DNA of 64,000 nt from Fibrobacterales bacterium (GTDB taxonomy: Bacteria > Fibrobacterota > Fibrobacteria > Fibrobacterales > JAOPTW01): the NCBI GenBank assembly GCA_051532055.1, contig JAOPTX010000037.1, forward strand, positions 1 through 64,000, written 5' to 3'. Shown in pieces: positions 6,415-14,269 of this stretch. Numbering within the stretch: position 1 is the stretch's first letter; every line of letters starts with the position of its first letter. Both the position numbers and the translations under genes were made by a program. Below the pieces are notes generated by a model. That model saw only the letters and a program-made list of their open reading frames with translations, did no database searches and was not told the origin of the DNA.

Positions 6415-6443
6415 CAATTATGATACATAAAGCGAGAGCCCGA

Positions 6444-7649
6444 ATGGCTGTAGACTACTTCAAAATGTCCATGGATATGCATAAGCAATGCCAAGGAAAA
6501 ATCGGTATAGAATCAAAATTTTGTGTAAAAAACAAAGAAGATCTTTGTGTTGCTTACACCCCTGGAGTTGCAGAACCATGTCTTGCAATTGCAAAAGATC
6601 CAGAACTTTCTAAAACATTAACGATTCGTGGAAATGCTATTGCAGTTGTTACTGATGGTACGGCAGTACTTGGTCTTGGTAATATCGGTCCAGAAGCAGC
6701 GATGCCTGTAATGGAAGGCAAAGCACTCCTCTTTAAACAATATGCCAATATTGACGCATGGCCACTCTGCCTCGACACTACAGACCCTAAAGAGATTATA
6801 AAAACAATTCGCTATTTAGCGCCAAGTTTTGGCGGTATCAACCTCGAAGATATTGCCGCTCCCCATTGTTTTGAAATTGAAAATGAGCTCCAAGACTTAG
6901 GCATCCCTGTCTTTCATGATGACCAATTTGGTACTGCAATTGTCTGTTTAGCAGCCATAATCAATGCAACTAAAGTTGTTGGTAAAAAAGTAGAAGACCT
7001 CAATGTTGTTATTTCTGGCCCCGGCGCTGCCGGCTCAGCTATTGCGCGATTAATTGCTATGCAAGGATTTGCAGCTTCGCCCGATAGGCCACCGGTACAT
7101 AATATCATCCTTTGTGATGAACACGGTGCCTTAGTAAAAGGCCGTGCACACCTCACTCCTGAATATGAAAAGCTACTAGAATTTACCAATAAAGAGAATC
7201 GTGGAGGCAAACTAAGTGATGTGATTGAGGGTGCTGATGTATTTATTGGTGTATCTCGTCCTGGAGTTCTCAAGAGAGAGGATGTAGCCAAAATGAGTAA
7301 GAATGCAATAGTTCTTGCTATGGCAAACCCAAAACCAGAAATCATGCCCGATGAAGCAAAAGCGGGTGGTGCGGCGGTAATTGGTACTGGACGAAGCGAC
7401 TTCCCCAATCAAGTAAACAACGTTCTCGTTTTTCCAGGTATCTTTAGAGGTGCCCTTGATGCAAAAGCCAAACAAATTACCCCTGAAATGAAAATTGCTG
7501 CAGCGTATGCCCTCGCAGCCCTCATTAAGGAGCCTACCGCTGATAAAATTATCCCAGACCCCTTTGATACAGGCGTTGCGGCCGCTGTTGCAGAAGCGGT
7601 AAAACTCACTGCAGAGAATCAACTCAAAAATGAAAAAGAATTTGTATAA
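6444..7649 (+). CDS. NAD(P)-dependent malic enzyme (short form)
   Basis: AYTPGVAEPC, TDGTAVLGLGNIG, PVMEGKALLFK, GGINLEDI, PVFHDDQ, TGRSDFPNQVNNVLVFPGIFRG; start 6444 or 6420. Confidence 0.93.
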   Translation: MAVDYFKMSMDMHKQCQGKIGIESKFCVKNKEDLCVAYTPGVAEPCLAIAKDPELSKTLTIRGNAIAVVTDGTAVLGLGNIGPEAAMPVMEGKALLFKQYANIDAWPLCLDTTDPKEIIKTIRYLAPSFGGINLEDIAAPHCFEIENELQDLGIPVFHDDQFGTAIVCLAAIINATKVVGKKVEDLNVVISGPGAAGSAIARLIAMQGFAASPDRPPVHNIILCDEHGALVKGRAHLTPEYEKLLEFTNKENRGGKLSDVIEGADVFIGVSRPGVLKREDVAKMSKNAIVLAMANPKPEIMPDEAKAGGAAVIGTGRSDFPNQVNNVLVFPGIFRGALDAKAKQITPEMKIAAAYALAALIKEPTADKIIPDPFDTGVAAAVAEAVKLTAENQLKNEKEFV

Positions 7650-7673
7650 TTAGTATAAACCCAAAACCACCGA

Positions 7674-10223
7674 GTGAATATGAGCAACTTTTTTGATACA
7701 TATAACGAGCATGTAGCAGCCCGAGCCAAAGAAGGCATACCTCCCCTTCCTTTAACTATTGAACAAGCTTCTGACGTTATCACCCTTTTAAAAAAACCTT
7801 CTGCCGGTACCGAGCAAGAGCTATTTGACCTCATTGCGAACCGCGTAAATCCAGGTGTTGATCCGGCGGCAAAGCTCAAAGCAGAATTTCTTCTCGACCT
7901 CGCTCAAGAAACGGTAACTACACCAGTTGTTTCTGCTGAGAAAGCTATCGAACTCTTATCAACAATGGTTGGTGGATATAATATTGATGCACTTGTAACG
8001 ATAGTAGAAAGCGGCTCTTCCTTGGCATCTCAAGCAGCTGATGCCCTCAAAAAAATTGTACTTTCAGTCAACCGCTACGAAGATATTGAAGCTCTTGCAA
8101 AAAGTGGGAACACACTCGCAGAAGGTGTTATTGAATCATGGGCTTCAGCTGAGTGGTTTACAACACAGCCTGAAGTACCTGAAGCAATTAAAACAGTCCT
8201 ATATAAAGTAGATGGCGAGATAAATACCGATGATTTCTCACCTGCAGCATATGCATATACCCGTTCCGATATTCCCTTGCATGCAAATGTCATGGGTGGT
8301 ACGGTCTTTCCTAATGGACCGAAAGAAATTGTTGACCTCAGAACAGAAAATGATCTTCCTGTAAGTTTTGTGGGAGATGTCGTAGGAACTGGTTCTTCAC
8401 GAAAATCTGCATGTAACTCACTTCTTTGGCATATTGGTAATGAAATCCCTTTTATCCCCAATAAAAAACGTGGCGGCGTTATAATCGGTGGAATTATTGC
8501 TCCAATCTTTTTTAACACAGCAGAAGACTCAGGTTCTCTGCCTCTTCAAGCTGATGTAACAAAACTTAAAACCGGTATGGTTGTCACAGTATACCCTCAC
8601 AAAGGTGAAATTCATGATGAATCTGGTGCTGTAATAACAACATTTGAAAATAAACCTGCAACAATATTAGATGAATATCGTGCCGGTGGGCGCGTCCCAC
8701 TTATTATTGGAAAACTTCTCACCGGAAAAGCTCGTGAGTATTTAAAACTTTCTGTCATTGAAGAGAGTGGAATTTTTGTTAATCCCGAAAATACACAACC
8801 TTCGGAAGGGCAAGGCTATACTCTTGCCCAAAAAATGGTTGGAAAAGCGTGTGGCGTTGAGGGTATCCTCCCAGGAACTGCGTGCCTCCCAAAAATGACT
8901 ACTGTTGGGTCTCAAGATACAACAGGCCCAATGACCGCAAACGAAATGACAGAACTTGCCTGCCTCGAGTTCAATGCAGATCTCGTTATGCAATCATTCT
9001 GTCACACAGCCGCTTATCCAAAACCTTCTGATGTCATAACCCATTCAACTCTTCCCGATTTTATTAGCAGTCGCAAAGGTGTTGCTCTTCGCCCTGGCGA
9101 TGGTGTTATTCACTCTTGGCTTAACCGCCTGCTTGTTCCAGATACCGTAGGTACTGGTGGCGACTCTCATACTCGATTTCCAATGGGCATATCATTCCCT
9201 GCAGGGTCAGGACTTGTTGCATTTGGCGCCGCACTCGGTGTTATGCCTTTGGATATGCCCGAATCAATTCTTGTCCGTTTTAGTGGAAGCCTTCAACCTG
9301 GACTCACTCTTCGTGATGCTGTAAATATGATTCCATGGAAAGCAATACAAGAAGGTAAACTTACGGTTGCAAAAGAGGGTAAGAAAAATATCTTCTCGGG
9401 TAAAATCATTGAAATCGAAGGACTTCCTGACCTTAAAGTTGAACAAGCATTTGAGCTCACTGACGCAACAGCAGAACGTTCGGCTGCCGGTTCTACAATT
9501 AAACTTAACCGTGGCCCTGTCGAAGAGTATCTCAAGTCAAATGTCGCACTTATGGAAAAGATGATTGTTGATGGCTATAGTCATGCAGATACACTCCAGA
9601 AGCGTATTGATGATGTAAAGCACTGGCTTGCAACTGAAGAGCTCATGAGTGCTGACGCCAATGCTCAGTATGCCGACATTATTGAAATCAACCTAGACGA
9701 AATGACTGAGCCTATTCTAGCATGCCCTAATGATCCTGATGACGTAAAACTCATTTCTGAAGTGGCAGGAAACACTGTTGATGATGTTTTTATTGGATCA
9801 TGTATGACCAATATTGGCCTATTTAGAGCTGCCGGTAAAATCCTAGAAGGTAATGGATTTGCTGAATCACAACTCTGGGTATGTCCACCTACTAAGATGG
9901 ATGAAAAACAACTTATTGATGAAGGGTACTACTCAACATTCTCTGGAGCTGGTGCACGACTCGAGCTCCCAGGGTGCTCACTTTGTATGGGTAACCAAGC
10001 ACGCGTTAAAGACGGCCATACAGTATTCTCTACCTCTACCCGTAATTTTAACAACCGGTTAGGTAAAGATGCTAATGTCTATCTTGGGTCATCAGAGCTC
10101 GCAGCCGTAGTTGCACTCAAAGGCAAGATACCCACTAAAGAAGAATATCTTGCGCTTTACAATGAAACGATTGTTGGCAATGAAGATACTCTCTATCGCT
10201 ATTTGAATTTTCACTTAGCATAA
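7674..10223 (+). CDS. acnB: Aconitate hydratase B
   Basis: HEAT-like N-terminus, NTDDFSP, GTGSSRKSA, GSQDTTGPM, QSFCHT, GGDSHTRFP, LACPNDPDD, IGSCMTN, PGCSLCMGNQ, STRNF. Confidence 0.97.
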   Translation: MNMSNFFDTYNEHVAARAKEGIPPLPLTIEQASDVITLLKKPSAGTEQELFDLIANRVNPGVDPAAKLKAEFLLDLAQETVTTPVVSAEKAIELLSTMVGGYNIDALVTIVESGSSLASQAADALKKIVLSVNRYEDIEALAKSGNTLAEGVIESWASAEWFTTQPEVPEAIKTVLYKVDGEINTDDFSPAAYAYTRSDIPLHANVMGGTVFPNGPKEIVDLRTENDLPVSFVGDVVGTGSSRKSACNSLLWHIGNEIPFIPNKKRGGVIIGGIIAPIFFNTAEDSGSLPLQADVTKLKTGMVVTVYPHKGEIHDESGAVITTFENKPATILDEYRAGGRVPLIIGKLLTGKAREYLKLSVIEESGIFVNPENTQPSEGQGYTLAQKMVGKACGVEGILPGTACLPKMTTVGSQDTTGPMTANEMTELACLEFNADLVMQSFCHTAAYPKPSDVITHSTLPDFISSRKGVALRPGDGVIHSWLNRLLVPDTVGTGGDSHTRFPMGISFPAGSGLVAFGAALGVMPLDMPESILVRFSGSLQPGLTLRDAVNMIPWKAIQEGKLTVAKEGKKNIFSGKIIEIEGLPDLKVEQAFELTDATAERSAAGSTIKLNRGPVEEYLKSNVALMEKMIVDGYSHADTLQKRIDDVKHWLATEELMSADANAQYADIIEINLDEMTEPILACPNDPDDVKLISEVAGNTVDDVFIGSCMTNIGLFRAAGKILEGNGFAESQLWVCPPTKMDEKQLIDEGYYSTFSGAGARLELPGCSLCMGNQARVKDGHTVFSTSTRNFNNRLGKDANVYLGSSELAAVVALKGKIPTKEEYLALYNETIVGNEDTLYRYLNFHLA

Positions 10224-10238
10224 TCATTTATATACAAT

Positions 10239-10272
10239 AAAAAAGGGCAACTCAATGAGCTGCCCTTTTTTT
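10239..10272. terminator. Bidirectional intrinsic terminator
   Basis: AAAAAAGGGCAACTC-AAT-GAGCTGCCCTTTTTTT between convergent genes. Confidence 0.8.
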
Positions 10273-10293: not shown

Positions 10294-11103
10294 TTAATAG
10301 CGGTATACAAATCCGATGCCCACGCCCCACGAACTTGATATCATAGTAGCCTCTGACAGAAGCTTTAAATCAGTCGCTAGCGGTTCACTTGAATCTTCAG
10401 CGACTTCATCACCAACTTTTGGGATGTCAGACAATTTTGTTCTTTTTGAAATATGAGCAACATCATATTTAGAGTAATTATAATACATAAAAGCATTACA
10501 CATAATATTGTCTATTATAGGAATCAGAAAACCACCTTTGACCTGAGTTCCTACACCTAAATCAATATCATACTCAAGCTCTGATGAAACAAAATTTGTA
10601 TCTTGACTAACCGATATCGCAGTCGCTTCCTGAGAATAGTCTAAAACCTTTGAGATATTGAGAGAACCACTTATATATGGCTTTACATAATAATCGGAAT
10701 ATTCATAATAAACCCCTATACCAAATGGCACTATAACCACCTCTGATTCAACGAATTCTTTAGCGAGAGTGGTATCATTTAAACTTATTTGCAAAAGGTT
10801 TTGAGCATCTGAATTTTGGTAGCCCATGGAAAGTAAAACTCCCCAATAGTCATTTATAGACTTTTTCACCGTGATATCATAGCCAAATCCTGCACCAATA
10901 TACGTTTCATTATTTGCCAAATCAGCAAATTGATTGGTCGATATATTCTCTCGATTATATTGAATATTGAAGTAGCTATTTCCAGAATTCAAACTCCATC
11001 CATGAAGTGTATTTATTTCAACAGACGTAGTTTGTTTTGCCAAACCTAAAGAACACATTAAAAATACAAGCAATAACAGACGATTCATTAATGACTCACT
11101 CAA
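10294..11103 (-). CDS. Outer membrane beta-barrel protein (OmpW/porin-like), function unknown
   Basis: Signal peptide, alternating aromatic beta strands (KPYISG), C-terminal WGVGIGFVYRY. Confidence 0.65.
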   Translation of the reverse strand: MSESLMNRLLLLVFLMCSLGLAKQTTSVEINTLHGWSLNSGNSYFNIQYNRENISTNQFADLANNETYIGAGFGYDITVKKSINDYWGVLLSMGYQNSDAQNLLQISLNDTTLAKEFVESEVVIVPFGIGVYYEYSDYYVKPYISGSLNISKVLDYSQEATAISVSQDTNFVSSELEYDIDLGVGTQVKGGFLIPIIDNIMCNAFMYYNYSKYDVAHISKRTKLSDIPKVGDEVAEDSSEPLATDLKLLSEATMISSSWGVGIGFVYRY

Positions 11104-11241: not shown

Positions 11242-11278
11242 AAAAAAGGTCGAAGAGTGTAAGCTCTTCGACCTTTTT
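11242..11278 (-). terminator. Intrinsic terminator of the icd-citrate synthase fusion gene
   Basis: AAAAAAGGTCGAAGAG-TGTAAG-CTCTTCGACCTTTTT. Confidence 0.85.
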
Positions 11279-11297: not shown

Positions 11298-13937
11298 CTA
11301 TTTATCTCTACGTGGTCCCGCATAGATGTATTTAGGTCGCATAATTGGAACACCCTTACCACCACGAGCAACAGTGCGTTCATAAAGAATTTGCGCTGCA
11401 ATACCTACACATCGTGAAAGCCCAAAGAGTACCGTATAGTAGTTTTCATCTTCAAGACCACAGGCCTTGAGAAGTGATCCAGATACTGCATCAACATTAG
11501 GGTATGGATTAGAAACCTTTGGATTACGTGAAAGTACTTTAACCGCAACTTTTCTAAGAGCTTTAGCCATTTTAAAGTGTGGAGTATCAAGCCCTAGATC
11601 CTCGCCTAGCCCATATTGTACAGTCGCACGAGGATCTTCACCACGAAGTACTGCATGACCAAATCCAAATATTTTTCCACCATTATCAAAATGATTTTGA
11701 ATAAACGCTTCAAGAGCATCTTCATCTTCAGGATTAGGAACCTTCTCTAATACTAAATCGATAAAGGCTAAACACTCTTGATTTGCACGACCATGAAGTG
11801 GTCCATCTAAAGCACACATTGCTGCAATTAATGAGCCATACACATGTTCATGTCCTGATGCTACTGCTTTACCTACGAGGGTTGAAAGGTTGCCTCCCCC
11901 ATGGTCATAGTGAAGAATATTAAATATTTTCATTAACTGTTTTAAATTCTCATGTGCTCCTGGAGCTCCCATCATATGGGTAAAGTTTTCCATATACCCG
12001 AGTTCTGGTTTTGATGGAATTGCATCTCCCCATCCCTCACGGAATCGAAAAATTGCTGCAACAACTTCTGGAATTTGAGCAACAAAATTCATACAGTCAT
12101 TACGGTAATTACTGGTATTAAACATAGCCATGGAATTAATACCAGTGACGAGCCACTGCATTGGATGCGCATCTTTCGGCAAACGAGCGAGGCGTTCAAG
12201 TATTAATGGATGTAGCTTAGAGCGATCTCTCAACTCTTCTTTGAAATCAAGAAGTTGCTGTTTATCTGGAAGTTCCAAGTTAAAAAGTAGGTAGATAACT
12301 TCTTCTGGTGCTTTATACGCTAATTCAGCTATTGGATAGCCAGCATAGTGTACACCATCAATTGGATCAACAAAACTTGTAACACAATGTCCAACAGGAA
12401 CACTGCGGAGTCCCGAATCAAGATTATTTTCTTTAATTTTATAGAGAGTGTTATTTTGAAATTTAACTACTTCATCATCTTTACCATCAAATGGTGCGAG
12501 AGATCTTCCTTCAGCATTTTTCAAGTAATCCTGAAGATTACTTTGATAGAGGCGTTCACCACGCCCCGACTCCATTTGATTTGCTTCAATGTTGGCTCTA
12601 TTTTCAAACTGATCAACAACACTTATTTTATCAGTTTTTTTTTGAACCTTTTTTTTTTGAAATTTTCTTTGAGCTGCAAGCTCGGCAATAGTATCAACCA
12701 TCACCTTACCAAATCCAGAACAAGAGAGCCCTTCAGCGCCAGTCATCTGATCAGCAAGATCTTTAGTAACTTTCTTTACACGGATACATTCAGTCAAGGC
12801 ATCACACACCAAGTCTGCGGCGTCTTTCCAATTAAAAAACTCCAGCATCATCACTGCACTTAAAAGTACCGATGATGGATTTGCAAGATCCATTCCAGCA
12901 ATTGCAGGAGCCGTACCATGAGTCGCCTCAAAGATTACTGTTTTATCACCAAAGTTAGCTCCTGGAGCAAGTCCGAGTCCACCAACTTGTGCTGCACATG
13001 CATCAGAAAGGTAGTCACCATTCAAATTGAGTGTGGCAATCACGTCATACTGAGCAGGATCAAGTAATAAGTTTTGAAACATAGCATCTGCAATAACATC
13101 ATTAATAAGGATTTTACCTTTCGGTTGTTTCCCTTTGTATTTAGTCTGTACTTCTTCCCAAGTAACAACTTTATTGCCAAACTCTTTTTTCGCAACTTCA
13201 TAACCCCAGTTTCTAAATCCACCTTCGGTGAATTTCATGATGTTACCTTTATGAACCAAAGTTACTGTTGGGCGATTATTATCGATTGCATATTGAATAG
13301 CGCGTTTAACTAAGCGTTTTGAGCCTAGAGCTGAAACTGGTTTAATACCAATTGCACTTGCTGGACGCACTTTTTTACCAGTGGTCTCAGCAATAAATTT
13401 AATAAGTTCTTTTGCATCTTTCGAACCAGCCTTATACTCAATTCCTGCGTATACATCTTCTGTATTCTCGCGAAAAATTACGACATCAAGTTCACCCGGA
13501 TGCTTAACAGGCGCTGACACACCTGGAAACCAGCGTACTGGACGTACACATGCATACAAATCGAGAGTTTGTCTCAGTGCAACATTAATTGAGCGAATGC
13601 CCCCACCAATAGGTGTAGTGAGCGGTCCTTTAATCCCTACTTTAAACTCTTTGAGTGCTTTAAGAGTTTCTGCGGGTAGCCATTCATTTTCGCCATATAC
13701 TCCAAGAGCTTTTTCGCCAGCAAAAATCTCCATCCATTCAATTTTCTTTTTACCATTGTATGCAGCTTCGACTGATGCGTCTAAGATTCTTTTAGCCACA
13801 CTCCAAATGTCAGGACCGATACCATCACCTTCGATAAAAGGAACAATAGGGTGGTCCGTTTTTTTAGGAACACCCTTTGCTGTAAACTCGATCTTTTTCC
13901 CTGATGTTGGTACTGTAATGTGCTTGTATTTTGCCAT
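11298..13937 (-). CDS. icd: Fused isocitrate dehydrogenase (N-terminal ~420 aa) and citrate synthase (C-terminal ~385 aa)
   Basis: Icd motifs: [69 protein letters not shown]. Citrate synthase motifs: [49 protein letters not shown]. One uninterrupted ORF. Confidence 0.93.
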
Positions 13938-14269
13938 AGTTCTTACGCCTCACTCTTCTTTTTCTATATTAGCGACGACTAATTTAAAAAAAATCTCTCG
14001 GATTTACACCACTTTCTGTAATTACCGAATATCATAATTTGTTAATACCTAGTCTATGATTTAAATGTAAGAGTTTCAAGTGGAAAACGACCCCTCCTTA
14101 CTCGTTTTTATTTAGGAATTTCAATTTTGTATTAGATCAATTTGTAATTTCCAAAGAAAATAACCTCTTTTTAAACCAATTTTGATGAACTCAAATATTT
14201 TTATAACCTCAATATTTAAAAATTAGTATACTGGCACTATTCATTACTACTCTACCTACAAAGGATGTT

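What the first reader, a model, noticed from the sequence alone, without database searches (positions are those of the whole stretch)
11298..13937. Isocitrate dehydrogenase fused to citrate synthase in one polypeptide
Seen: a complete E. coli-type Icd (about aa 1-420), a stop-free linker of about 70 aa and a complete citrate synthase form one 879-aa ORF with one terminator, and the recognisable catalytic motifs of both are present. Known: these enzymes catalyse steps 1 and 3 of the oxidative TCA branch, are normally separate proteins, and both are homodimers. Inference: the fusion skips the middle step and could form a genetically encoded metabolon that docks AcnB, encoded about 1 kb away. Two independent dimer interfaces could also drive rings or filaments. 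I do not know of a characterised Icd-CS fusion.
Basis: partly seen in the sequence, partly recalled or inferred. Interest (0 to 1): 0.88.

Follow-up and report, generated by a model that had tools for sequence, protein, structure and literature searches.

The report
Fused isocitrate dehydrogenase–citrate synthase enzyme
A marine Fibrobacterales bacterium makes two Krebs-cycle enzymes, isocitrate dehydrogenase and citrate synthase, as one continuous protein that arose when the stop codon between two neighbouring genes was lost, a very rare and so far unstudied arrangement.

Summary
Window 11298..13937 (-) is one 879-aa ORF: a complete type I Icd (aa 1-417), a 78-aa linker and a complete citrate synthase (aa 496-879), followed by a strong terminator. 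It is not an artefact. The same frame is intact in a second species of the genus, where dS is 0.56-0.88 yet linker dN/dS is 0.066, and in two metagenome proteins. A metatranscriptome contig bridges the linker.

The origin is clear. In 31 genomes of sister families, icd and CS are adjacent but separate genes in the same order; four of them are one stop codon away from a fusion.

New findings:
- The genome holds a second, short-linker Icd-CS fusion, split over two contig ends. These two fusions are its only CS-family genes.
- Trees of both halves support one fusion event followed by duplication.
- All fused Icd halves have lost the NADP determinants (K344/Y345/V351/Y391/R395), so they are probably NAD-linked. 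A monomeric IDH is also present.
- The second copy's Icd half has lost two metal ligands.

AcnB lies in a separate, convergent operon. The metabolon and filament ideas remain untested. I found no published description. This is a new variant of a known kind, of moderate to high interest.

The parts
11298..13937 (-). Complete Icd-CS fusion ORF, 879 aa plus stop
   Evidence: intact in G001, P0002, P0003
12687..13937 (-). Type I isocitrate dehydrogenase domain (aa 1-417). Substrate and metal residues are intact. The positions equivalent to E. coli 344/345/351/391/395 read A, I, A, K, D.
   Evidence: dN/dS 0.009 against G001
12453..12686 (-). 78-aa linker (aa 418-495), lysine-rich at its start, with no recognisable domain
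   Evidence: Alignment; dN/dS 0.066 with dS 0.875; pLDDT below 50; no Pfam or Atlas match; RNA-library contig spans 12411-12766 without gaps
11301..12452 (-). Citrate synthase domain (aa 496-879), closest to eukaryote/mitochondrial-type CS. The equivalents of pig H238, N242, H274, H320, R329, D375, R401 and R421 are all present.
   Evidence: invariant columns; pLDDT mostly above 90; dN/dS 0.020
11243..11278 (-). Intrinsic-terminator-like hairpin (15-bp stem, T run) ending the fusion's transcription unit
7674..10223 (+). AcnB (aconitase B), convergent to the fusion and preceded 25 nt upstream by a malic-enzyme gene (6420..7649). This is context, not shown to be part of the system.
   Evidence: same layout in G001
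10294..11103 (-). Outer-membrane beta-barrel protein gene lying between the fusion and acnB, with its own terminator at 10271..10239. Context only.
   Evidence: only 37% identical between G000 and G001

Best explanation
The ORF encodes a genuine, transcribed and selectively maintained bifunctional protein: an N-terminal type I isocitrate dehydrogenase joined by a 78-aa linker to a C-terminal citrate synthase. It arose in an ancestor of this Fibrobacterales genus when the stop codon between the neighbouring genes of an icd->CS operon was lost; that operon is conserved across the class. The fused gene then duplicated, giving the 879-aa long-linker form in the window and an ~816-aa short-linker form elsewhere in the genome. 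Shown here: both catalytic centres of the window's copy are intact and under strong purifying selection, so it should carry out step 1 (oxaloacetate + acetyl-CoA -> citrate) and step 3 (isocitrate -> 2-oxoglutarate + CO2) of the oxidative TCA branch, with a separately encoded aconitase supplying step 2. Inferred: the immediate effect of the fusion is obligatory 1:1 co-synthesis and co-localisation of the two activities. Inferred from specificity residues only: the Icd domain no longer prefers NADP and probably uses NAD+, while the genome's monomeric IDH covers NADPH supply. Not shown: any channelling, AcnB docking or higher-order assembly.
For: Real and conserved:
- One ORF with both domains over curated cut-offs.
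- Intact in G001, which is 97% identical in protein but has dS 0.56-0.88. dN/dS is 0.009 (Icd), 0.066 (linker) and 0.020 (CS).
- Intact in P0002 (92%) and P0003 (85%, with a 1-aa in-frame indel in the linker).
- No indels in DNA or RNA-library contigs; one RNA-library contig covers 12411-12766, that is the whole linker and both flanks.

Origin:
- Of 34 loci examined, 2 are fused (G000, G001) and 32 (31 distinct genomes of families f5 and f7) have icd, a stop, 17-268 nt, then CS with its own ATG.
- In L094, L095, L101 and L102 the two genes are in frame with a single stop between them.

Single origin:
- On the CS tree, long plus short fusions form one clade (96% SH-aLRT).
- On the Icd tree, a 96% branch separates both fusion groups from the other 56 rows.

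Catalysis:
- E. coli S113, N115, R119, R129, R153, Y160, K230, D283, D307 and D311 are all kept.
- Pig CS H274, H320, D375, R329, R401 and R421 are kept.

Coenzyme:
- Positions 344/345/351/391/395 read A-I-A-K-D in 4 of 4 long fusions and D-(I/L)-A-A-(Q/R) in 2 of 2 short ones, against K-Y-(V/I)-Y-R in 32 of 32 unfused rows of the phylum.
- K344, Y345, V351 and Y391 are named as EcIDH coenzyme determinants, and K->D and Y->K mutants lose NADP affinity, in PMC10574006 (passages read).
- The domain scores higher on 1iso (517 bits), whose printed sequence has D, I, A, K, S at these sites, than on wild-type 1ai2 (509 bits).
- Monomeric IDH is present in G000 (1193 bits). Across the class it is present in the window's order but in 0 of 32 genomes of family f7, which keeps the NADP-type operon.
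Against: - There is no protein-level evidence that the full-length product accumulates.
- The RNA evidence is contigs from one metatranscriptome of the same sample as the probable source DNA. Contigs cannot show a single transcript, and DNA carry-over is possible.
- An in-frame ATG at codon 455 is conserved in the long-linker forms and could give a separate CS, although no Shine-Dalgarno-like motif precedes it.
- The coenzyme inference rests on residues alone. Position 344 is Ala in the long form, not the Asp that repels the 2'-phosphate, so dual specificity is possible.
- NCBIfam still scores the domain above the cut-off of its 'NADP-dependent' equivalogs.
- The fused sequences form one clade, so the link between fusion and coenzyme change is a single evolutionary event, not a repeated association.
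- The structure model gave no confident linker or domain arrangement (pTM 0.48).
Confidence: 0.75

Rival explanations
1. Assembly or sequencing artefact: two adjacent genes (icd, CS) were merged by an erroneous base or indel that removed the stop.
For: Sister-family genomes do have two separate adjacent genes. The genome is a fragmented draft of 181 contigs.
Against: The same 879-codon frame is intact in a different species with dS 0.56-0.88, in a JGI protein and in another NCBI protein. The linker is 78 codons of constrained sequence (dN/dS 0.066), not a short read-through. No indels appear in the laid contigs.
Confidence: 0.02
2. The fused ORF is real, but the cell uses two separate proteins: CS is made from an internal start (ATG at codon 455), or the linker is cleaved after translation, so the fusion only couples expression.
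For: An in-frame ATG at codon 455 is conserved in G000, G001, P0002 and P0003. The linker has low predicted order. This phylum may not depend on Shine-Dalgarno sites (recalled, not tested).
Against: No SD-like motif lies in the 25 nt before codon 455. The part of the linker upstream of codon 455 is also conserved in frame. The short-linker paralogue and P0004 have only ~17 linker residues and no internal Met there, yet keep the fusion.
Confidence: 0.1
3. One reading: the fusion is a built-in metabolon that docks AcnB and, through two independent dimer interfaces, forms rings or filaments that channel citrate and isocitrate.
For: Both parent enzymes are homodimers (established knowledge). acnB is 1 kb away in both species. 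Non-consecutive TCA enzymes do associate functionally in B. subtilis (MDH-ICD; PMC11189929, abstract and passages read).
Against: acnB is convergent, in another operon with a malic enzyme, and separated from the fusion by an unrelated OMP gene and two terminators. Nothing here addresses binding or polymerisation.
Confidence: 0.15
4. One domain of the window's protein is no longer catalytic and serves as a regulatory or scaffolding module, for example an Icd-like metabolite sensor on a citrate synthase.
For: This does seem to have happened in the paralogue: in G000's short-linker copy the Icd half has R112N, N115A, N232T, D307G and D311N.
Against: In the window's copy every substrate, metal and catalytic residue of both domains is kept, and dN/dS is 0.009 and 0.020.
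Confidence: 0.05

Closest known systems
Type I homodimeric isocitrate dehydrogenase (E. coli Icd; PDB 1ai2, 5m2e, 3dms)
   Same: Full-length match at about 57% identity (509-525 bits). The phosphorylatable Ser113, all substrate and metal ligands and the catalytic Tyr160/Lys230 are present.
   Different: It carries a C-terminal CS. It lacks K344, Y345, V351, Y391 and R395. No AceK was found in the genome (the genome is 94% complete).
Natural and engineered NAD-specific type I IDHs (for example the E. coli variant in PDB 1iso)
   Same: Shares Ile345, Ala351 and Lys391 with the 1iso sequence printed. The short-linker paralogues also share Asp344.
   Different: The long-linker form has Ala, not Asp, at 344 and Asp at 395. 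Its specificity has not been measured. That 1iso is the engineered NAD enzyme of Chen, Greer and Dean 1995 is recalled; that paper was seen only as a reference-list entry and is not held in the library.
Eukaryote/mitochondrial-type citrate synthase (pig 1cts, Arabidopsis CSY4 6k5v); NCBIfam NF007128
   Same: Best solved matches (206 and 191 bits). The catalytic triad and the oxaloacetate-binding arginines are conserved.
   Different: The first ~42 residues of the pig enzyme have no counterpart; the linker and Icd sit there instead. Unfused relatives are short (about 388 aa).
icd-CS operon of sister Fibrobacteria families (for example L009, 'MAG: Fibrobacteria bacterium')
   Same: Same gene order and orientation. 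Icd is 62-67% and CS 57-64% identical to the halves of the fusion.
   Different: These have two genes with a stop and a 17-268 nt spacer, and their Icd has the NADP-type residues.
B. subtilis TCA enzyme associations (MDH-ICD, MDH-CS) and the engineered MDH-CS fusion
   Same: Physical coupling of TCA enzymes, including non-consecutive ones (PMC11189929). The engineered MDH-CS fusion appears in the reference list of PMC6750097.
   Different: Those are non-covalent or man-made. Here the link is covalent, natural and between CS and Icd. That CitZ-Icd-Mdh form a core complex in B. subtilis is recalled, not read.
Eukaryotic NAD-IDH3 (catalytic alpha with non-catalytic beta/gamma subunits)
   Same: G000's second paralogue has lost its own-site metal ligands D307 and D311 but keeps K230 and D283, which a type I subunit donates to its partner's site. 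This is an analogy only.
   Different: Heterodimer formation has not been shown. P0004, the other short-linker protein, keeps D307 and D311. The description of IDH3 architecture is recalled.

Membership tests
Type I isocitrate dehydrogenase (Pfam PF00180; NCBIfam NF005425 / TIGR00183) | Profile score over the curated cut-off across the full-length domain | tested here: met
   PF00180 300.8 bits (cut-off 27). NF005425 608.4 bits (cut-off 490) and TIGR00183 599.6 bits (cut-off 567.3).
Type I isocitrate dehydrogenase (Pfam PF00180; NCBIfam NF005425 / TIGR00183) | Isocitrate and metal binding and catalytic residues (E. coli S113, N115, R119, R129, R153, Y160, K230, D283, D307, D311) | tested here: met
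   All are present in the window's protein and in 4 of 4 long-linker fusions. The residue list itself is recalled.
NADP-dependent subclass of type I IDH (the label of NF005425 and of the public annotation) | 2'-phosphate-binding determinants K344, Y345, V351, Y391 (and R395) | tested here: not met
   A, I, A, K, D at these positions. The determinants are named in PMC10574006. The 'NADP-dependent' name is therefore not supported.
Type I isocitrate dehydrogenase | Homodimer with shared active sites | not testable with these tools
   Two full-length chains exceed the size limit of the complex tool.
Citrate synthase (Pfam PF00285; NCBIfam NF007128 subfamily) | Profile score over the curated cut-off | tested here: met
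   PF00285 287.4 bits (cut-off 27), profile 1-357 of 357. NF007128 374.1 bits (cut-off 344).
Citrate synthase (Pfam PF00285; NCBIfam NF007128 subfamily) | Catalytic His274, His320, Asp375 and substrate-binding His238, Asn242, Arg329, Arg401, Arg421 (pig numbering) | tested here: met
   Mapped on 1cts, giving H679, N683, H715, H761, R770, D816, R842 and R867, all invariant in A1. The residue list is recalled.
Citrate synthase | Acetyl-CoA rather than propionyl-CoA as acyl donor (citrate versus 2-methylcitrate synthase) | not testable with these tools
   TIGR01800 (2-methylcitrate synthase/CS II) scores only 195.9 bits against a cut-off of 421.3. An assay is needed.
Composite ('Rosetta stone') gene fusion | A single uninterrupted ORF whose parts are separate genes in other genomes | tested here: met
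   Fused in 2 of 34 loci and separate in 32 (31 distinct genomes).
Composite ('Rosetta stone') gene fusion | The fusion recurs in independent assemblies under selection | tested here: met
   G001, P0002, P0003 and P0004. Linker dN/dS is 0.066.
Composite ('Rosetta stone') gene fusion | The full-length polypeptide is made | not testable with these tools
   Only RNA-library contigs bridging the linker are available.
IDH3-like catalytic/regulatory pairing (considered for the two paralogues) | One partner lacks its own-site metal ligands but keeps the residues it donates to the partner's site | tested here: inconclusive
   This holds for G000's copy (D307G, D311N; K230 and D283 kept) but not for P0004 (D307 and D311 kept). 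It rests on a single assembly.

The most novel reading that the evidence does not exclude
The two paralogous fusions co-assemble. The short-linker protein, whose Icd half has lost its own metal ligands but keeps the residues it would lend to a partner's active site, pairs through its Icd domain with the catalytic long-linker protein, as the non-catalytic subunits of eukaryotic IDH3 pair with the alpha subunit. Because each chain also carries a dimerising CS domain, the result would be a defined hetero-oligomer or open polymer, a genetically hard-wired CS-IDH core of a TCA metabolon. In it a degenerate Icd site senses citrate or isocitrate and tunes flux, and the coenzyme has switched to NAD+.
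Probability: 0.12. Interest if true: 0.85.

Novelty: new variant of a known kind. Interest (0 to 1): 0.62.

Why it matters
Whether TCA-cycle enzymes work as physical assemblies, and what contacts between non-consecutive enzymes achieve, is a long-standing question that is usually studied with weak, transient complexes or man-made fusions. Here evolution has made and kept a covalent CS-Icd pair, duplicated it, changed its likely coenzyme and apparently inactivated one Icd copy, while close relatives keep the unfused operon as a natural control. That gives a clean comparative system: fused against unfused orthologues at about 60% identity. It can be used to test what tethering steps 1 and 3 does to kinetics, oligomeric state and 2-oxoglutarate output. 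The fusion also predicts that CS and Icd interact in relatives. In practical terms, public annotation names the 879-aa protein only 'NADP-dependent isocitrate dehydrogenase'. That hides the organism's only citrate synthases and probably gives the wrong coenzyme, which would mislead metabolic reconstruction of these marine Fibrobacterales.

Tried and rejected
1. L025 (a MAG labelled Bacillota) looked like a full-length match, but it is CS followed by icd with a stop between them, and its CS is of another type (31% identity). Rejected as a fusion.
2. 'open_frame_aa' values of 830-919 suggested further fusions in G251, G255, G265 and G275. Frame analysis shows a stop after icd in every one.
3. 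The exhaustive HMMER search of 1.84 billion cluster representatives listed no fusion in its best 150 (top score 517.8 bits, Icd only). The known fusions are evidently hidden behind non-fused representatives, so this blank says little. The long hits I checked are Icd-MDH (P0123), Icd only (P0149, P0249) and CS only (P0256).
4. P0277 (601 aa, both Pfam families) is CS followed by a 60-residue Iso_dh fragment in the reverse order. It is probably a miscalled operon and was not counted.
5. Alignment A2 (fused plus Icd-only plus CS-only rows) misplaced the CS rows on the Icd half and was discarded. A3 was used instead.
6. The AlphaFold2 model from A3 has mean pLDDT 59.9 and pTM 0.48. The CS half is good, the Icd half poor (only 7 rows cover it) and the linker is below 50. 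It gives no information on domain arrangement.
7. Complex prediction of the Icd half against the CS half scored 0.00 and returned no verdict. This is neither support nor evidence against an interface.
8. Linker homology: Pfam at E <= 5 gave only DUF3332 at E 0.065, below its cut-off. BLASTP against the N-terminal extension of the long CS P0272 gave nothing. Atlas feature hits were all 0.78 or lower.
9. The search of earlier findings for this genome returned nothing relevant.
10. In PMC7282089 the term 'gene fusion' comes only from a software citation. In the bioRxiv preprint 2022.10.25.513756 and in PMC11976288, 'fusion' refers to ATP-citrate lyase.
11. PMC40463 (Chen, Greer and Dean 1995) is not held.
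12. TIGR00239 (2-oxoglutarate dehydrogenase E1) was not found in the 94%-complete genome. I draw no conclusion from this about whether the cycle is complete.
Full report
**Observation.** The window has a single stop-free ORF at 11298..13937 on the minus strand, 879 aa with an ATG start.
- Pfam places Iso_dh at aa 32-410 (300.8 bits) and Citrate_synt at aa 509-869 (287.4 bits), each covering its profile almost end to end.
- NCBIfam scores the N-terminal half above the cut-offs of two isocitrate dehydrogenase equivalogs (NF005425: 608.4 against 490; TIGR00183: 599.6 against 567.3). It scores the C-terminal half above that of the citrate (Si)-synthase subfamily NF007128 (374.1 against 344).
- About 78 residues (418-495) between the domains match nothing.
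- A terminator-like hairpin with a 15-bp stem follows 20 nt after the stop.

**Not an artefact.**
- The same 879-codon frame is intact, with no stop, in the only other species of the genus held (G001).
- The two genes are 97% identical in protein but well separated at synonymous sites (dS 0.56 in the Icd part, 0.88 in the linker, 0.86 in the CS part). dN/dS is 0.009, 0.066 and 0.020 respectively. The linker is therefore a translated, constrained sequence and not an accidental read-through.
- Two further full-length 879-aa proteins from other assemblies, P0002 (92%) and P0003 (85%), keep the frame. P0003 has a one-residue in-frame indel in the linker.
- Contigs of a DNA run (probably the source sample, so not independent) and of a metatranscriptome run of the same sample show no insertion or deletion. 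One RNA-library contig lies on 12411-12766, across the whole linker (12453-12686) and into both domains. RNA-library contigs cover 11853-14041 except about 12335-12410. Contigs cannot prove a single transcript, and DNA carry-over cannot be excluded.

**How rare.**
- In the 5.8-billion-cluster protein collection, a search with the whole protein scored 7999 candidates; among the 120 best listed, three carry both Pfam families: P0002, P0003 and P0004.
- A search with the CS half, restricted by length to proteins of 483 aa or more, returned 27 proteins. Only those three, plus a doubtful reverse-order fragment (P0277), have both families.
- A search with P0004 found nothing new.
- The window's protein shares its 90% cluster with P0002 and with P0296, which is identical to G001's protein and is publicly named 'MAG: NADP-dependent isocitrate dehydrogenase [Fibrobacterales bacterium]'.
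- The exhaustive search of 1.84 billion representatives listed no fusion. Because the known fusions themselves do not appear there, that blank is uninformative.
- Four full-text searches and the passages I read gave no description of a natural Icd-CS fusion.

**Origin.**
- A scan of one genome per species found a 'MAG: Fibrobacteria bacterium' record (L009) with icd (422 aa), a 56-nt spacer and CS (388 aa) in the same order but in different frames.
- A survey of 296 genomes of the phylum, followed by retrieval of the regions and frame analysis, covered 34 loci holding both genes.
- Only G000 and G001 are fused. The other 32 loci have a stop after icd and a CS with its own ATG 17-268 nt downstream. 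These 32 loci represent 31 distinct genomes, two of family f5 and 29 of f7, because L009 is identical to G259.
- In four loci (L094, L095, L101, L102) the genes are in the same frame with a single stop between them, so they are one substitution away from a short-linker fusion.
- A locus from an unpublished genome (G253) was left out; nothing rests on it.

**A second fusion in the same genome.**
- The two apparent 'stand-alone' paralogues reported both lie at contig ends. The Icd ORF on C65 runs off the start of its contig, and the CS ORF on C12 runs off the end of its contig.
- The last 22 nt of C12 equal the first 22 nt of C65, and the frame continues across the overlap.
- The intact 816-aa P0004 aligns at residues 1-451 to the C65 piece (67% identity) and at 446-816 to the C12 piece (82%).
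- The genome therefore very probably encodes a second Icd-CS fusion of about 816 aa with a linker of about 17 residues. G001 shows the same split.
- Family searches of the genome find CS-family domains only in these two genes. Iso_dh domains occur only in them and in a leuB-like gene. The organism, whose genome is 94% complete, thus has no free citrate synthase of this family.

**One fusion, then duplication.**
- On a CS tree of 44 rows, the long-linker (4) and short-linker (3) fusions form one clade with 96% SH-aLRT, nested among the unfused sequences of the class.
- On an Icd tree of 62 rows, a branch with 96% support separates the two fusion groups from the 56 other rows, which include 24 from other phyla.
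- Both are quick searches without bootstrap. The short-linker Icd halves sit on a very long branch, so long-branch effects are possible on the Icd tree. The agreement of the two halves is the argument.

**Active sites.**
- Mapped on E. coli Icd (alignment to 1ai2), the window's protein and all four long-linker fusions keep S113, N115, R119, R129, R153, Y160, K230, D283, D307 and D311.
- Mapped on pig CS (1cts), H238, N242, H274, H320, R329, D375, R401 and R421 are present, and they are invariant among the fused proteins. The residue lists themselves are recalled from the literature on these enzymes.
- The short-linker type differs. P0004 has N115A and N232T. G000's copy has in addition R112N, D307G and D311N, so it has lost two of the three metal ligands. 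Its Icd half is probably inactive on its own, while its CS motifs are intact. This rests on one assembly.

**Coenzyme.**
- At the positions of E. coli K344, Y345, V351, Y391 and R395, all 32 unfused rows from the phylum and 22 of 24 outgroup rows read K-Y-(V/I)-Y-R.
- The four long-linker fusions read A-I-A-K-D, and the two short-linker ones read D-(I/L)-A-A-(Q/R).
- PMC10574006 (passages read) names K344, Y345, V351 and Y391 as determinants of EcIDH coenzyme specificity. It reports that the equivalent K->D and Y->K mutations in a Pseudomonas type I IDH abolish or lower NADP+ affinity.
- The window's domain scores better against 1iso, whose printed sequence carries D, I, A, K and S at these sites, than against wild type (517 against 509 bits).
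- I infer that the fused Icd domains no longer prefer NADP+ and probably use NAD+. With Ala rather than Asp at 344, the long form could have dual specificity.
- Consistent with a division of labour, the genome has a monomeric IDH (PF03971, 1193 bits). Across the class this enzyme is present in the window's order (f1 1/1 besides G000, f2 2/2, f4 138/151) and absent from family f7 (0/32), where the NADP-type icd-CS operon is universal.
- AceK was not found.

**Surroundings.**
- acnB (7674..10223, +) lies 25 nt behind a malic-enzyme gene (6420..7649, +) and is convergent to the fusion.
- Between them lie an outer-membrane beta-barrel gene (10294..11103, -) and two terminator-like hairpins.
- G001 has the same layout.
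- Proximity of acnB is therefore real, but it is not co-transcription, and nothing here shows binding.

**Structure.**
- AlphaFold2 on an alignment of fused and CS rows gave a confident CS half, a poor Icd half (few rows) and a linker below pLDDT 50, with pTM 0.48. It says nothing about how the domains sit.
- Full-length dimers are too large for the complex tool. The oligomeric consequences of joining two homodimeric enzymes stay open.

**Verdict.** This is a real, conserved and almost certainly bifunctional Icd-CS fusion that arose by stop-codon loss in a conserved operon and was then duplicated. It comes with a probable NADP-to-NAD shift and one degenerating Icd copy. It is a new domain architecture built from two well-known enzymes: a new variant of a known kind, not a new kind of system.

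Noticed in passing
G000 contigs C65:3-1352 (-) and C12:69735-70849 (-); loci L122 and L121: A second, short-linker Icd-CS fusion (~816 aa), split by an assembly break with a 22-nt overlap. Its Icd half has D307G, D311N, N115A, N232T and R112N. G001 shows the same split (C59 and C10).
   Followed up: yes
P0275 (722 aa) and P0123 (776 aa), metagenome proteins: Other apparent natural fusions of TCA enzymes: malate dehydrogenase-citrate synthase (P0275) and isocitrate dehydrogenase-malate dehydrogenase (P0123), by Pfam. P0275 is a cluster of one member from one contig. For P0123 only the representative was seen (cluster size not given). Neither has been checked for sequencing errors.
   Followed up: partly
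P0007-P0121: Most of the next-best hits are ~588-aa type I Icd proteins with a C-terminal CBS domain (PF00180 + PF00571). Where they are named, they come from Gammaproteobacteria and other phyla. This looks like a widespread Icd-CBS architecture.
   Followed up: no
window 10294..11103 (-) and L002 4360-5148: The outer-membrane beta-barrel gene between the fusion and acnB is only 37% identical between the two species, while its neighbours are 94-100% identical. It is a fast-evolving surface protein.
   Followed up: no
window 6420..10223 (+): A malic-enzyme gene and acnB are 25 nt apart on the same strand, probably one operon.
   Followed up: no
L122 1697..2734 (+) (G000:C65): ORF with a long collagen-like run of G-x-x triplets (GTNG(I/V)DG repeats), interrupted by withheld bases.
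   Followed up: no
Loci L102-L118 compared with L090-L101 (family f7): Two Icd subtypes sit next to CS in the same family: a 418-aa form (62-67% identical to the query) and a 446-aa form with insertions (51-57%). The 446-aa form groups with Icd of G006 and G011 and with other phyla on the Icd tree, which hints at replacement of icd within the operon.
   Followed up: no
P0296 (the G001 protein): The public name is 'NADP-dependent isocitrate dehydrogenase' for the whole 879-aa protein. The CS half is not annotated, and the coenzyme label conflicts with the specificity residues.
   Followed up: yes
P0079 (1391 aa, Gemmatirosa kalamazoonensis): Type I Icd fused to PF13620 and PF10633 domains, another unusual Icd architecture.
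   Followed up: no
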